Positions 5,201 to 16,313 of a stretch of DNA of 64,000 nucleotides are shown in pieces. The stretch spans positions 45,818,001 to 45,882,000 of the forward strand of contig NC_047017.1 of NCBI RefSeq assembly GCF_902652985.1. Direction: 5' to 3'. A program made the position numbers and the translations under genes. Position 1 is the stretch's first letter. The number at the start of each line of letters is the position of its first letter. The notes under the pieces are model-generated. The model was given only the letters and a program-made list of their open reading frames with translations. It searched no databases and was not told the DNA's origin. This stretch comes from Pecten maximus (Eukaryota).

Positions 5201-5584
5201 AGTCAACTATGTTAGGAAAAAGATGAAATAAAACACTCCAAAAACAAACAAGCACAGAGTACATTTACTGAGTACAAACCCAGTACACATGACAAGTACA
5301 AACCAAGTACACATCACAAGTGCAAACTGAGAACACATCACAAGTACAAACTGAGAACACATGACAAGTACAAACTGAGAACACATCACAAGTACAAACT
5401 GAGAACACATCACAAGTACAAACTGAGAACACATCACATGTACAAACCGAGAACACATCACAAGTACAAACCGAGAACACATCACAAGTACAAACCCAGA
5501 ACACATCAAAAGTACAAACCCAGTACACATGACAAGTACAAACCCAGTACACATGACAAGTACAAACCCAGTACACATCACAAG

Positions 5585-5713
5585 TGTAGCGGGACTGGAC
5601 AGGGTCGATCATCGGTGACGAGGTAGCTCAATTGGTAGAGCATCCGGCTAGTGTTCGGAAGTCCCGGGTTCGAACCCCGGTCTGGCCGCTACATTTTCTC
5701 CTCTCCTGTTACA
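5585..5713 (+). mobile_element. 129-bp tRNA-containing insertion, probable solo LTR of a Helenus-type TRIM (alternative: very short tRNA-SINE)
   Basis: Starts tgtagcggga and ends tcctgttaca (TG...CA, 8/10 inverted match). caag is duplicated at 5581-5584 and 5714-5717. Removing the insert restores the 24-bp unit. It contains a tRNA-like cassette. Confidence 0.8.
5617..5688 (+). pseudogene. tRNA-Thr(AGT)-like sequence inside the mobile element
   Basis: A box tagctcaattggtagagc; anticodon arm tccgg-ctAGTgt-tcgga; perfect T arm ccggg-ttcgaac-cccgg; acceptor stem gacgagg/tctggcc has two mismatches; TTTT at 5694-5697. Confidence 0.75.
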
Positions 5714-7311
5714 CAAGTACAAACTGAGAACACATCACAAGTACAAACCCAGTACACATCACAAGTACAAACTGAGAACACATGACAAGTACAAACTGAG
5801 AACACATGACAAGTACAAACTGAGAACACATGACAAGTACAATCTGAGAACACATGACAAGTACAAACTGAGAACACATCACAAGTACAAACTGAGAACA
5901 CATCACAAGTACAAACTGAGAACACATGACAAGTACAAACCCAGAACACATGACAAGTACAAACCAAGAACACATCACAAGTACAAACTGAGAACACATC
6001 ACAAGTACAAACCGAGAACACATCACAAGTACAAACTGAGAACACATCACAAGTACAAACCCAGTACACATCACAAGTACAAACCCAGTACACATCACAA
6101 GTACAAACCGAGAACACATCACAAGTACAAACTGAGAACACATGACAAGTACAAACCCAGAACACATGACAAGTACAAACCAAGAACACATCACAAGTAC
6201 AAACTGAGAACACATCACAAGTACAAACCGAGAACACATCACAAGTACAAACTGAGAACACATCACAAGTACAAACCCAGTACACATCACAAGTACAAAC
6301 CAAGAACACATCACAAGTACAAACTGAGAACACATGACAAGTACAAACTGAGAACACATCACAAGTACAAACTGAGAACACATTACAAGTACAAACTGAG
6401 AACACATCACAAGTATAAACTGAGAACACATCACAAGTACAAACTGAGAACACATCACAAGTACAAACTGAGAACACATCACAAGTATAAACTGAGAACA
6501 CATCACAAGTACAAACTGAGAACACATCACAAGTACAAACTGAGAACACATGAAAAGTACAAACTGAGAACACATCACAAGTACAAACCAAGTACACGTG
6601 ACAAGTACAAACTGAGAACACATCACAAGTACAAACTGAGAACACATCACAAGTACAAACTGAGTACATCACAAGTACAGACTGAGAACACATCACAAGT
6701 ACAAACTGAGAATACATCACAAGTACAAACTGAGAACACATCACAAGTACAAACTGAGAACACATCACAAGTACAAACTGAGAACACATGACAAGTACAA
6801 ACTGAGAACACATGACAAGTACAATCTGAGAACACATCACAAGTACAAACCGAGAACACATCACAAGTACAAACTGAGAACACATGACAAGTACAAACTG
6901 AGAACACATGACAAGTACAAACTGAGAACACATCACAAGTACAAACCCAGAACACATGACAAGTGCAAACCGAGAACACATCACAAGTACAAACTGAGAA
7001 CACATCACAAGTACAAACCCAGAACACATGACAAGTGCAAACTGAGAACACATCACAAGTACAAACTGAGAACACATCACAAGTACAAACTGAGAACACA
7101 TCACAAGTACAAACTGAGAACACATCACAAGTACAAACTTGTCGGTTCCCGGTATCCTCAATTGTTTCTGTCATCAATAAGATGAGGTTGTTGTTAAAGG
7201 ATAACATCCAACGAAAACAATGACAGATGAATGAATAAAAAGGAAATTAAAAAAGACAATGACATAACAGACAATGTAAGTACAAAGCTTTGTGTAGATA
7301 AGATACTGCAT

Positions 7312-9914: not shown

Positions 9915-12900
9915 CCCCACTCAGTACCTGACTACATCCCCGCCCACTCCACTCCAGTACCTGACTACATCCCCGCCCCACTCCAGTACTTGACTACACC
10001 CCGCCCCACACCAGTACGTGACTACATCCCCCCCGCCCACTCCAGTACCTGACTACATCCCCACCCCACTCCAGTACATGACTACACCCTCCCCCCCATT
10101 CCAGTACCTGACTACATCCCCCCCCCACTCCAGTACCTGACTACATCCCCCCCCCCCCCCACTCCATTCCAGTACCTGACTACATCCCTCCCCCACTCCA
10201 GTACCTGACTACATCCCTCCCCCACTCCAGTACCTGACTACATCCCCCCCACTCCAGTACCTGACTACATCCCCGCCCCACTCCAGTACGTGACTACACC
10301 CCGCCCCACTCCAGTACGTGACTACATCCCCCCCCCACTCCAGTACCTGACTACACCCCGCCCCACTCCAGTACCTGACTACATCCCCCCCCCACTCCAG
10401 TACCTGACTACATCCCCCCCCATTCCAGTACCTGACTACACCCCGCCCCACTCCAGTACCTGACTACACCCTACCCCCCCCACTCCAGTACATGACTACA
10501 ACACCCCCCCCACTCCAGTACCTGACTACACCCCCCCACTCCAGTACCTGACTACATCCCCGCCCCACTCCAGTACGTGACTACACCCTCCCCCCCACTC
10601 CAGTACCTAACTACATCCCCGCCCCACTCCAGTACGTGACTACACCCCCACCCCACTCCAGTACGTGACTACACCCCCACCCCACTCCAGTACCTGACTA
10701 CATCCCCGCCCCACTCCAGTACCTGACTACATCCCCGCCCCACTCCAGTACCTGACTACACCCCCCCCCATTCCAGTACCTGACTACAACCCTCCCCCCC
10801 CCCCCCCCACTCCAGTACCTGACTACATCCCCACCCCACTCCAGTACCTGACTACATCCCACCCCACTCCAGTACCTGACTACATCCCCCCCCCCCCCCA
10901 CTCCAGTACCTGACTACATCCCCCCCACTCCAGTACCTGACTACACCCCCGCCCCACTCCAGTACCTGACTACATCCCCTACCCCCCACTCCAGTACCTG
11001 ACTACATCCCCTACCCCCCACTCCAGTACCTGACTACATCCCCTACCCCCCACTCCAGTACCTGACTACATCCCCCCCCCACTCCAGTACCTGACTACAT
11101 CCCCCCCCCACTCCAGTACCTGACTACATCCCCCCCCCCACTCCAGTACCTGACTACATCCCCCCCCACTCCAGTACCTGACTACATCCCCCCACTCCAG
11201 TACCTGACTACATCCCCCCCCACTCCAGTACCTGATAACATCCCCCCCCACTCCAGTACCTGATACATCCCCCCCCACTCCAGTACCTGACTACATCCCC
11301 CCCCACTCCAGTACCTGATAACATCCCCCCCACTCCAGTACCTGATAACATCCCCCCCACTCCAGTACCTGACTACATCCCCCCCCCCACTCCAGTACCT
11401 GACTACATCCCCCCCCACTCCAGTACCTGATAACATCCCCCCCCACTCCAGTACCTGACTACATCCCCCCCCACTCCAGTACCTGATAACATCCCCCCCC
11501 CCACTCCAGTACCTGACTACACCCCCCCCCCCACTCCAGTACCTGACTACATCCCCCCCCCCCATTCCAGTACCTGACTACAATCCCCCCCACATCCAGT
11601 ACCTGACTACACCCCCCCCCCACTCCAGTACCTGATAACATCCCCCCCACTCCAGTACCTGACTACATTCCCCCCCACTCCAGTACCTGACTACATCCCC
11701 CCCCCCACTCCAGTACCTGACTACATCCCCACCCCACTCTAGTACCTGACTACACCCCCCGCCCCACTCCAGTACCTGACTACACCCCCGCCCCACTCCA
11801 GTACCTGACTACATCCCCCCTCCCACTCCAGTACCTGACTACATCCCCGCCCACTCCAGTACCTGACTACATCCCCCCCCACTCCAGTACCTGACTACAT
11901 CCCCCCCCACTCCAGTACCTGACTACACCCCGCCCCAACTCCAGTACCTGACTACAACCCCCCCCCCCCACTCCAGTACGTGACTACATCCTCCCCCCCA
12001 CTCCAGTACCTGACTACATCCCACCCCACTCCAGTACCTGACTACACCCTCCCCCCACTCCAGTACCTGACTACCCACCCTCCCCCCCCACTCCAGTACC
12101 TGACTACATCCCCCCCACTCCAGTACCTGACTACATCACCGCCCACTCCAGTACCTGACTACATCCCCGCCCCACTCCAGTACCTGACTACATCCCCGCC
12201 CCACTCCAGTACCTGACTACATCCCCCCCACTCCAGTACCTGACTACATCCCCCCCCCACTCCAGTACCTGACTACATCCCCCCCCCACTCCAGTACCTG
12301 ACTACACCCTCCCCCCCACTCCAGTACCTGACTACATCCCCGCCCCACTCCAGTACCTGACTACATCCCCTACCCCCCCCAATCCACTACCTGACTACAC
12401 CCCGCCCCACTCCAGTACCTGACTACACCCTCCCCCCACTCCAGTACCTGACTACACCCCCCCCCCACTCCAGTACCTGACTTACACCCTCACCACTCCC
12501 AGTACCTGACTACATCCCCCCACTACAGTTACCTGACTTACACCCTCCCCCCCACTCCAGTACCTGACTACACCCCCCCACTCCAGTACCTGACTACCCC
12601 CCCCCATTCCAGTACCTGACTACAACCCCCCCCCCCCCCACTTCCAAGTTACCTGACCTACATCCCCACCCCACTCCGTACCTGACTACATCCCACCCCA
12701 CTCCCAGTACCTGACTTTACATCCCCCCCCCCCCACTCCAGTACCTGACTACATCCCACCCCACTCCAGTACCTGACTACAACCCCGCCCCCCACTCCAG
12801 TACCTGACTACATCCCCTACCCCCCACTCCAGTACCTGACTACATCCCCTACCCCCCCACTCCAGTACCTGACTACATCCCCTACCCCCCACACTCCAGT

Positions 12901-15900
12901 ACCTGACTACATCCCCCCCCCCACTCCAGTACCTGACTACATCCCCCCCCCACTCCAGTACCTGACTACATCCCCCCCCCCACTCCAGTACCTGACTACA
13001 TCCCCCCCCACTCCAGTACCTGACTACATCCCCCCACTCCAGTACCTGACTACATTCCCCCCCACTCCAGTACCTGATAACATCCCCCCCCACTCCAGTA
13101 CCTGATTAACATCCCCCCCCACTCCAGTACCTGACTACATCCCCCCCCACTCCAGTACCTGATAACATCCCCCCCACTCCAGTACCTGATAACATCCCCC
13201 CCACTCCAGTACCTGACTACATCCCCCCCCCCACTCCAGTACCTGACTACACCCCCCCCCACTCCAGTACCTGATAACATCCCCCCCCACTCCAGTACCT
13301 GACTACATCCCCCCCCACTCCAGTACCTGATAACATCCCCCCCCCCACTCCAGTACCTGACTACATCCCCCCCCCCACTCCAGTACCTGACTACATCCCC
13401 CCCCCACTCCAGTACCTGACTACATCCCCCCCCCCCCATTCCAGTACCTGACTACATCCCCGCCCACTCCAGTACCTGACTACATCCCCCCCCCACTCCA
13501 GTACCTGATAACATCCCCCCCACTCCAGTACCTGACTACATTCCCCCCCACTCCAGTACCTGACTACATCCCCTACCCCCCACTCCAGTACCTGACTACA
13601 TCCCCACCCCACTCTAGTACCTGACTACACCCCCGCCCAACTCCAGTACCTGACTACACCCCCGCCCCACTCCAGTACCTGACTACATCCCCCCCTCCCA
13701 CTCCAGTACCTGACTACATCCCCGCCCCCCCCTCCAGTACCCCTACCCCCCACATCCCCCCCCACTCCAGTACCTGACTACATCCCCCCCCCCCCCCCAG
13801 TACCTGACTACACCCCCGCCCAACTCCAGTACCTGACTACACCCCCCCCCCCCCCCCCCCCCCCCCTTCCAGTAACCTGACTACCAAAACCTCCCCCCCC
13901 CCTACCGACTACATCCCCCCACTCCAGTACCTGACTAACACTCCCACCCTCCCCCCACTCCAGTAACTCTTACTAACCCCTCCCACCCCACTCCAGTACC
14001 TGAACTACACCTCCCCCCCACTCCAGTACCTGACCTTACATCCACCCCCACCCCCAGTACCTGACTACATCCCGCCCCACTCCAGTACCTACATCCCCCC
14101 CCACTCCAGTACCTGAAATACATTTCCCCCCCCCACTCCCCGTAAACCGACTACATCCCCCCCCCCTCCATACCTACTACAATCCCCCCCCCACTCCAGT
14201 AACCTGAAATCACCCCCCCCCCATCCAGTACCTGACTACACCCCCGCCCCACTCCAGTACCTGACTACATCCCCCCCCCCCCCCCATCCACTACCTCCCC
14301 CCCCCCCCCCCCTCCAGTCCTACAACACCCCCCCATTCCGTACCTGACTACACCCCCTCCCCCCCCCCCCCCACTCCAGTACCTGACTACCTCCCCCCAC
14401 TCCAGTACCTGACTACATCCCCCCACTCCCGTACCTGACTACACCCCCCCCCCCCCCCCATCCATACCTGACTACATCCCCCCCCCCCCCCCCCTTCCAC
14501 CTGACTACAACCCCCCCCCCATCCAGTACCTGACTACATCCCCACCCCCACTCCTACCTGACTAACCATCCCCCCCCCCCCCCCTCCTACCTACTACAAC
14601 CCCCCCCCACTCCAGTACCCGACTACCCCCCCCCCCACTCCAGTACCTGACTACATCCCCCCCCCTCCAGTACCTGACTACATCCCCCCCCACTCCAGTA
14701 CCTGACTACATCCCCCCCCCACTCCAGTACCTGACTACATCCCCCCCACTCCAGTACCTGACTACATCCCCCCCACTCCAGTACCTGATAACATCCCCCC
14801 CCCACTCCAGTAACGATAACATACCCCCCCCCACTCCAGTACCTGACTACATCCCCCCCCACTCCAGTACCTGATAACATTACCCCCCACTCCAGTACCT
14901 GATAACATCCCCCCCACTCCAGTACCTGACTACATCCCCCCCCCACTCCAGTACCTGACTACATCCCCCCCACCTCCAGTACCTGATACATCCCCCCCCA
15001 CTCCAGGTACCTGACTACATCCCCCCCCCCACTCCAGTACCTGATAACATCCCCCCCCCCACTCCAGTACCTGACTACATCCCCCCCCCACTCCAGTACC
15101 TGACTACATCCCCCCCCACGTCCAAGTAAACTGACTACATCCCCCCCCCCATTCCAGTACCTGACTACAATCCCCCCGCCCACTTTATACCCTACTAACA
15201 TCCCCCCCCCAACTCCATACCTGATAACCATCCCCCCCCCACTCCAGTACCTGACTACATCCCCCCCCCCACTCCAGTACCTGACTACATCCCCCCCCCC
15301 ACTCCAGTACCTGACTACATCCCCCCCACTCCAGTACCTGACTACACCCCCCCCCCAACTCCAGTACCTGACTACAAAACACCCCCCCCCCCCCAGTACC
15401 TGACTACATCCCCCCCCCCCCCACTCCATACCTGAAATACACTTCCCCCCCCACTCCGTACCTGACTACATTCCCCCCCCTCCAGATACTACATCCCCCA
15501 CCCCCCCACTCCAGTACCTGACCCACACCCCCCCCAAATCCAGTTTCCTGACTTACCACCCACCCCCCCCCCCACTCCAGTACCTACTACAACCTCCCCC
15601 CCCACTCCATACCTGACTACATCCCCCCCACTCCAGTACCTGACTACACCCCCCCCCCCCCCCGTACCTGACTACATCCCCCCCACTCCAGTAGCCGTGA
15701 CTACATCCCCCCCCCACTCCAGTACGCTGACTACATCACCGCCCACATCCAGTACCCGTGGACTCACATCCCTACATCCCCCCCACTGCCCAGTACCTGA
15801 CTACATCCCCAGCCACCACTCTAGTACCTGACTACAATCCCCCGCCAACTCCAGGACCGGACTACATCCCCCGCCCCACTCCAGTACCCTGACTACAATC

Positions 15901-16237
15901 CTCCCCCCCACTCCATAACCTGACTACATAACCCAATCCCACCCCACCCAGTACCTGACTACAATCCCCGCCCACTCCAGTACCTGACTACCCTCGCCCC
16001 ACCCTCCCCCCCCAATCCAAGCTACCTGACTACATCCCCCCCCACTCCAGTACCTGAGCTACATCCCTCCCCCACTCCAGTACCTGACTACATCCCCCCC
16101 CCACTCCAGTACCTGACTACACCCTCCCCCACTCCAGTACCTGACTACATCCCCCCCACTCCAGTACCTGACTACAACCCCCCCCACTCCAGTACCTGAC
16201 TACAACTACAACCCCCCCCATTCCAGTACCTGACTAC

Positions 16238-16313
<76 letters not shown>

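What the first reader, a model, noticed from the sequence alone, without database searches (positions are those of the whole stretch)
5585..5713. 129-bp TG...CA element carrying its own tRNA-Thr-like Pol III unit: probable solo LTR of a tRNA-bearing TRIM
Seen: the insert sits precisely within a 24-bp unit, with ends tgtagcggga / tcctgttaca and a caag duplication. The tRNA-like part starts 32 bp inside the element and is followed by TTTT; there is no A-rich or microsatellite tail. The first 8 bases (tgtagcgg) are also the perfect reverse complement of ccgctaca at 5686-5693. Knowledge: SINEs start at the tRNA head and end in a simple tail, whereas integrase products end TG...CA with short fixed TSDs. 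From memory, Helenus TRIMs have tRNA-like LTRs and 4-bp TSDs in animals, analogous to 5S-bearing Cassandra. Inference: this is a mobile Pol III promoter that could be misannotated as a tRNA gene. Caveat: the duplication can also be read as 7 bp (cacaagt), which would suit a SINE.
Basis: partly seen in the sequence, partly recalled or inferred. Interest (0 to 1): 0.7.

Follow-up and report, generated by a model that had tools for sequence, protein, structure and literature searches.

The report
Solo LTR of known Helenus retrotransposon
This 129-base insert is a single terminal repeat of an already published miniature retrotransposon family of scallops (Helenus-2_PeMa), likely left behind by recombination; it carries a broken tRNA look-alike that probably serves as its promoter, and it is an ordinary copy among several hundred in the genome.

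Summary
Confirmed and already known. Window 5585-5713 is a 129-bp TG...CA element with a 4-bp duplication (CAAG), inside a 24-bp minisatellite. It matches the published LTR of Helenus-2_PeMa (Kojima 2024) at 126 of 129 bases (compared by eye). The genome holds 464 exact copies of its last 28 bases. Many copies are 348-bp elements: two LTRs around a 90-bp core with a tRNA-Lys(CTT) primer-binding site and a polypurine tract. Of 45 insertions with intact ends, 36 have a 4-bp duplication and none a 7-bp one, so the SINE reading fails. ARAGORN and Rfam call the inner part a tRNA, but its acceptor stem is mismatched. Pol III transcription was not tested. One feature is absent from the Helenus paper's text: the LTR's first 31 bases can pair with the 3' half of the tRNA-like part (2 of 2000 shuffles do as well). 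By eye, ten related families keep part of this pairing, with compensatory changes. It may circularise the RNA or gate termination; untested. The scan reported Helenus-type solo LTRs before, in flatworm DNA.

The parts
5585..5713 (+). Solo LTR of Helenus-2_PeMa (129 bp, TG...CA)
   Evidence: by-eye match to the published consensus at 126 of 129
5581..5584 (+). Left target-site duplication CAAG
5714..5717 (+). Right target-site duplication CAAG
5585..5616 (+). U3-like leader (inferred, if transcription starts near the tRNA 5' end); predicted to pair with the 3' half of the tRNA-like part; differs from most copies at 5601
5585..5592 (+). First arm of the perfect 8-bp inverted repeat
5686..5693 (+). 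Second arm of the 8-bp inverted repeat, directly before the T-run
5617..5688 (+). tRNA-Thr(AGT)-like sequence; acceptor stem mismatched at pair 2 (shared with the family) and pair 4 (this copy, 5620)
5624..5635 (+). A-box-like Pol III promoter element (TAGCTCAATTGG)
   Evidence: sequence; fits the TRGCY...YGG motif given in PMC10886601; activity untested
5667..5677 (+). B-box-like Pol III promoter element (GGTTCGAACCC)
   Evidence: sequence; GGTTC motif in PMC10886601; activity untested
5694..5697 (+). T4 run, candidate weak Pol III terminator
   Evidence: sequence; function inferred
5698..5713 (+). U5-like end (inferred); its pyrimidine run is predicted to pair with the polypurine tract in full-length copies
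5271..7139 (.). Host 24-bp minisatellite that received the insertion

Best explanation
This is a solo LTR of the published tRNA-bearing miniature retrotransposon Helenus-2_PeMa, likely left when the two LTRs of a 348-bp copy recombined after insertion into the minisatellite. Shown: family identity, fixed ends, 4-bp duplications, two- and three-LTR copies, an 11-nt primer-binding site complementary to tRNA-Lys(CTT) and a polypurine tract. Inferred cycle: Pol III starts at the tRNA-like promoter of the 5' LTR, reads through the weak T4, and stops at the T4 of the 3' LTR, giving an RNA of about 300 nt with the tRNA-like part at both ends. An autonomous Gypsy-type element would then supply Gag, reverse transcriptase and integrase, priming with host tRNA-Lys(CTT). 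The solo copy lacks the primer site and the tract, so it cannot move again; at most it would make an RNA of about 80 nt.
For: Family match at 126 of 129 bases by eye, with the published sizes 129/90/348 and TSD 4. 464 exact copies of the last 28 bases, 219 LTR-to-primer-site junctions and 205 tract-to-LTR junctions in the genome, with 0 in each reversed control. Among the first 25 distinct insertions, 5 are solo, 18 two-LTR and 2 three-LTR; outer LTRs of one element differ at 0 to 5 sites. 36 of 45 intact insertions have a 4-bp duplication; 2 match at 3 bp, 1 at 5, 2 at 6, 0 at 7. Duplications lean to a palindromic C-A-T-G (17, 23, 21 and 17 of 36 by position), as expected of an integrase (own knowledge). 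Locus L060 has an LTR followed by 37 nt complementary to tRNA-Lys(CTT), including the CCA complement that 0 of 11 other tRNA-Lys-matching loci carry, which looks like a copied primer.
Against: 9 of 45 intact insertions lack a perfect 4-bp duplication; most differ by one or two bases. No autonomous partner was identified: all 30 loci fetched of the 219 junction matches were copies or fragments of the small element. Pol III transcription is not shown. The recombination origin is inferred from the intact duplication alone.
Confidence: 0.96

Rival explanations
1. A tRNA-derived SINE inserted by target-primed reverse transcription with a 7-bp duplication.
For: At this site alone a 7-bp duplication can be read; the core is tRNA-like with A and B boxes.
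Against: 0 of 45 intact insertions have 7-bp duplications and 36 have 4-bp ones. Ends are fixed, there is no tail, the tRNA part is internal, and copies come paired around a primer site and purine tract.
Confidence: 0.01
2. A working tRNA-Thr(AGT) gene spread by a mobile carrier.
For: ARAGORN and Rfam both call it a tRNA. D, anticodon and T stems can all pair. Kojima lists seven bivalve Helenus families that could encode tRNA-Thr.
Against: Acceptor pair 2 is A-C in both copies examined, and pair 4 is G-G in this copy. Base 37 is G, whereas tRNAs with U36 normally carry A37 (recalled). Predicted acceptor-stem pairing probability is at most 0.14, though such folding models often miss true cloverleafs. 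Helenus-2_PeMa is not among the seven families of Figure S1.
Confidence: 0.02
3. A non-autonomous DNA transposon (MITE) with short terminal inverted repeats.
For: The first 10 and last 10 bases are inverted repeats at 8 of 10 positions, and the element has strong self-complementarity.
Against: The unit occurs as direct repeats around a 90-bp core with a tRNA primer site and purine tract, and the duplication flanks the whole 348 bp.
Confidence: 0.01

Closest known systems
Helenus-2_PeMa (Kojima 2024, PMC10886601; described from the scallop Pecten maximus)
   Same: Same family: 129-bp LTR, 90-bp internal part, 348 bp in all, 4-bp TSD, tRNA-Lys(CTT) primer site.
   Different: This copy is a solo LTR with three substitutions (5601, 5620, 5660). 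Of 92 other full-length LTR copies, 2 share the first, 0 the second and 0 the third.
Helenus-1_ArIr and other short bivalve Helenus families (Helenus-1_SaGl, -2C_CGi, -1_TeGr, -2_TeGr, -2/-4/-5_PiIm, -2_SaGl)
   Same: Short leader, tRNA-like part, T-run, pyrimidine-rich end, TG...CA.
   Different: Different sequences, and different primer tRNAs in most of them (His, Pro, Ile).
Cassandra (5S-bearing plant TRIM)
   Same: Pol III promoter inside the LTR, tandem LTR-core arrays, and a predicted LTR-LTR 'super-hairpin' (PMC7215508 passages).
   Different: 5S-derived rather than tRNA-derived. Its Pol III transcription is validated; that of Helenus is not.
biv-TRIM (Satovic 2019, PMC6934838)
   Same: Bivalve TRIM with solo and tandem forms.
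   Different: No canonical primer site; the tRNA similarity reported lies in the inner domain (passages).
Ty1 CYC5-CYC3 cyclisation
   Same: A 5'-3' pairing of the genomic RNA is needed for efficient reverse transcription (PMC3681743 passages); an analogy for the predicted pairing here.
   Different: Autonomous yeast element, with different positions and no sequence relation tested.

Membership tests
Helenus (TRIMp3) | Two LTRs around a short non-coding internal part, under 1 kb | tested here: met
   20 of the first 25 distinct insertions have two or three LTRs with an 89-98 bp core; the window copy itself is solo
Helenus (TRIMp3) | tRNA-like sequence with A and B boxes inside the LTR | tested here: met
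   boxes read from the sequence
Helenus (TRIMp3) | Primer-binding site behind the 5' LTR | tested here: met
   11 nt complementary to tRNA-Lys(CTT) plus CCA; checked against tRNA-Lys genes of this genome; 219 junctions
Helenus (TRIMp3) | Polypurine tract before the 3' LTR | tested here: met
   (205 junctions)
Helenus (animal) | 4-bp target-site duplication | tested here: met
   36 of 45 intact insertions; 7 of 52 loci excluded for a truncated or abutting end
Helenus-2_PeMa | At least 90% identity over at least 90% of the consensus LTR (the paper's full-length criterion) | tested here: met
   126 of 129 by eye against the supplement; the three differing bases agree with those found against locus L026
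Helenus (TRIMp3) | Transcription by RNA polymerase III | not testable with these tools
   only assembled contigs were available for RNA runs; also unvalidated in the paper
Helenus (animal) | Mobilised in trans by a Gypsy element | not tested
   no search by protein was run; the 30 junction loci read held no autonomous element
tRNA-derived SINE (SINE2) | Starts at the tRNA head and ends in a simple tail | tested here: not met
   32-bp leader, fixed end, no tail
tRNA-derived SINE (SINE2) | Variable-length target-site duplications | tested here: not met
Functional tRNA-Thr gene | Fully paired 7-bp acceptor stem | tested here: not met
   5 of 7 pairs in this copy, 6 of 7 in L026

The most novel reading that the evidence does not exclude
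Short bivalve Helenus elements carry a selected RNA switch. The leader (U3), present only once in the read-through Pol III transcript, pairs with the 3' half of the tRNA-like repeat. Pairing with the 5' repeat, continued by U5 with the polypurine tract, would close the RNA into a rod, unfold the cloverleaf so that tRNA-processing nucleases spare it, and bring the two ends together for strand transfer. Pairing with the 3' repeat would put a hairpin directly before the T4 and make it terminate only in the 3' LTR. Either would answer how a Pol III retrotransposon passes its first terminator and escapes tRNA processing.
Probability: 0.3. Interest if true: 0.5.

Novelty: already known. Interest (0 to 1): 0.17.

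Why it matters
As found, it matters little: it is one of several hundred copies of a family published in 2024. Its practical use is as a warning, since two standard tools call this copy a tRNA-Thr gene, so the family can inflate tRNA counts. The family is young (some elements have identical LTRs) and small, which makes it a convenient system to test the unproven Pol III transcription of Helenus. If the leader-repeat pairing is functional, it would explain how such elements read through one terminator, stop at an identical one and avoid tRNA maturation.

Tried and rejected
7-bp duplication and SINE origin: rejected. Search for sister subfamilies in this genome to test covariation with tools: two patterns gave 1 match each, both worn single copies, so no tool-based covariation test was possible; within the family the copies are too alike. 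Expression: contigs of 4 runs (2 recorded as RNA, 2 guessed) cover the element, and one contig spans LTR-core-LTR, but contigs cannot show start, end, strand or level, and many run on into unrelated flanks; not used as evidence for or against Pol III. Host gene: 140 of 172 non-repeat open frames of 48 or more residues were scanned against Pfam; one weak PIP5K hit (E 0.0038, below cut-off) was not recovered by a genome search with that family, so it is rejected and no host gene was identified. In one search the acceptor- and T-stem indices were off by one; those numbers are void and were redone. The empty-site state in other individuals was not examined, because the site lies in a long repeat. 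The simple idea that the leader pairs with its own repeat to aid termination is weakened: in the predicted read-through RNA that form is about 8 kcal/mol less stable (-112.4 against -120.3).

Full report
Observation. The element lies at 5585-5713, is 129 bp long, starts TGTAGCGGGA and ends TCCTGTTACA, and is flanked by CAAG on both sides. It splits one unit of a 24-bp minisatellite that spans 5271-7139. ARAGORN reports one tRNA in the whole window, tRNA-Thr(AGT) at 5617-5689, and Rfam's tRNA model scores 5617-5688 at 48 bits against a cut-off of 29. A T4 run follows at 5694-5697. The first 8 bases are the exact reverse complement of 5686-5693, which 20 of 20000 shuffles reproduce.

Family in the genome. 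A search of the 918-Mb genome scored 40 of 1684 candidates and gave 75 matches, many in pairs 219 bp apart. Exact patterns count 464 LTR 3' ends, 219 LTR-to-primer-site junctions and 205 purine-tract-to-LTR junctions, each with 0 in the reversed control; these are lower bounds. Of the first 30 loci, 5 were duplicates of one insertion; the 25 left are 5 solo, 18 two-LTR and 2 three-LTR copies, with cores of 89-98 bp and 0-5 differences between the outer LTRs, 4 of the 20 having none. This set was chosen by likeness to the window copy, so it favours young copies. Pooling with a second set chosen by the primer-site junction gave 52 distinct loci; 7 were dropped for a truncated end or an end abutting the core, and 36 of the other 45 have a 4-bp duplication, against 2, 1, 2 and 0 for lengths 3, 5, 6 and 7. 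The duplications lean to the palindrome C-A-T-G. The 7-bp reading at the window site is a coincidence of host bases with the element's terminal T and CA.

Identity. Kojima 2024 (PMC10886601; I read parts 1-5 of 6 of the main text, and parts 1, 5, 6, 7, 9 and 10 of 11 of the supplement with searches) lists Helenus-2_PeMa from Pecten maximus with LTR 129, internal 90, full length 348 and TSD 4. By eye, its LTR consensus differs from the window copy at positions 17, 36 and 76, the same three positions at which stored locus L026 differs. The published internal part matches, by eye, the cores read. The host is therefore probably that scallop or a close relative (inference). Of 92 other full-length LTRs, 2 share the window's base at 17 and none at 36 or 76, so this copy has aged a little in place.

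Primer and tract. [quoted passage not shown] It ends with a purine tract 2 nt before the 3' LTR. Locus L060 supports this primer: an LTR is followed by the spacer and 37 nt complementary to tRNA-Lys(CTT), and then unrelated DNA. That sequence matches 27 places in the genome; of 12 fetched, one is L060 itself, 0 of the other 11 have the CCA complement in front, and ARAGORN calls tRNA-Lys(CTT) genes in 8 of the 9 of those 11 that were scanned. The CCA must then come from a mature tRNA, so this looks like a copied primer fixed by a faulty integration (inference; it has no duplication).

The tRNA-like part. D, anticodon and T stems can pair, but acceptor pair 2 is A-C and, in this copy, pair 4 is G-G. 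Base 37 is G, where tRNAs ending their anticodon in U normally have A (recalled). The family is not among the seven bivalve families that the paper's Figure S1 lists as possibly coding. A- and B-box motifs are intact. This fits a promoter rather than a working tRNA.

Mechanism. Shown: structure, copy number, duplication length, primer complementarity. Inferred from the paper and from general LTR biology: Pol III transcription from the 5' tRNA-like unit to the 3' T4, packaging and copying by a Gypsy-type helper, integration with a 4-bp duplication, and later LTR-LTR recombination to a solo LTR. The paper itself states that Pol III activity of Helenus is unvalidated. RNA data here were contigs only and do not bear on it.

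The inverted repeat. The 8-bp repeat is the end of a longer pairing. In an intact LTR (L026), bases 1-31 pair with 80-109, giving -54.1 kcal/mol for bases 1-113 (z -4.27, 0 of 200 shuffles), against -39.0 when the cloverleaf is forced; the window copy gives -47.8 (z -2.56, 4 of 200), and the tRNA-like part alone is unremarkable (z -0.57 and -0.73). The leader-to-repeat duplex is -37.6 kcal/mol; 2 of 2000 shuffled leaders do as well, and 15 of 2000 with the first four bases fixed. In the predicted 300-nt read-through RNA the single leader pairs with the 5' repeat (probability 0.83-1.0 over the 8 bp), continued by U5 with the purine tract; this form is -120.3, pairing with the 3' repeat -112.4, and two cloverleafs -102.9. 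These are equilibrium predictions and assume a start at the tRNA 5' end.

Cross-family check, by eye only. I scored 10 of the 51 published bivalve LTRs, chosen for the same layout (short leader, T-run just after the tRNA-like part); the other 41 were not scored, and in several of them no such pairing was obvious. Counting the first 8 bases against the 8 in the same register, with G-U allowed: PeMa-2 8, ArIr-1 8, SaGl-1 8, CGi-2C 7, PiIm-5 7, TeGr-1 7, PiIm-2 6, PiIm-4 6, TeGr-2 6, SaGl-2 5. Position 4 pairs in 10 of 10, as A-T in five, G-C in four and G-T in one; position 5 switches from G-C to A-T in CGi-2C. Relatedness is not controlled and three of the four G-C cases come from one species. 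A relic of an older LTR end, or a duplication of the acceptor strand into the leader, could give the same picture without function.

Is that in print? The Helenus paper's main text has 0 occurrences of 'inverted', 'hairpin' and 'RNase P'. Searches for Helenus, TRIMp3 and bivalve TRIM structure found the paper itself and citing papers; the two whose passages I read only mention it (PMC12859917, PMC13570524). Subscription journals are mostly not covered. The idea has precedents: a predicted LTR-LTR super-hairpin in Cassandra (PMC7215508, passages), 5'-3' cyclisation in Ty1 (PMC3681743, passages), and hairpins just before a T4 stimulating yeast Pol III termination in vitro (10.1101/2021.08.27.457903, abstract and section 12).

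Surroundings. About 45% of the window is tandem repeat. No host gene was found. The scan's earlier notes hold nothing for this sequence or place, and two unreviewed reports of Helenus-type solo LTRs in flatworm DNA, which I did not check.

Verdict. Observation confirmed, first reading supported, family already known. Interest 0.17. The leader-repeat pairing is the only part with new potential: probability 0.3 of being a functional switch, interest 0.5 if true.

Noticed in passing
L060 (G000:C3 near 19096362-19096520, minus strand): A Helenus LTR followed by 37 nt complementary to mature tRNA-Lys(CTT), CCA included, in place of the normal core: likely a copied primer tRNA fixed by a faulty integration.
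   Followed up: partly
L031-L033 (G000:C1:4790276-4791029): Tandem array of three whole LTRs and one partial LTR with 95-bp cores, joined head-to-head to an inverted fragment of what looks like another Helenus-like element.
   Followed up: no
L002, L028, L039: Three-LTR tandem copies (LTR-core-LTR-core-LTR, 567 bp), as described for Cassandra and biv-TRIM.
   Followed up: partly
36 insertion sites in L001-L060: Target duplications lean to the palindrome CATG/TATA/CTAG, a possible clue to the helper integrase.
   Followed up: partly
L068:1439-1530 and L072 near 1501-1575: tRNA-Lys(CTT) copies whose 5' end is replaced by the same unrelated sequence; ARAGORN miscalls one as tRNA-Thr. Possibly truncated pseudogenes at the edge of tRNA arrays.
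   Followed up: no
L064-L071 and contigs C2406, C3702: tRNA-Lys(CTT) genes in tandem arrays with spacings of about 1.15 kb and 1.87 kb.
   Followed up: no
window 1-64000: About 45% of the window is made of more than 20 unrelated minisatellites with periods of 15-52 bp, including a 6.3-kb C-rich 29-bp array at 9915-16248; no coding exon was recognised.
   Followed up: partly
L073:around 1500: A worn solo LTR of a related tRNA-bearing family with a different leader and trailer; single match in the genome for the pattern used.
   Followed up: partly
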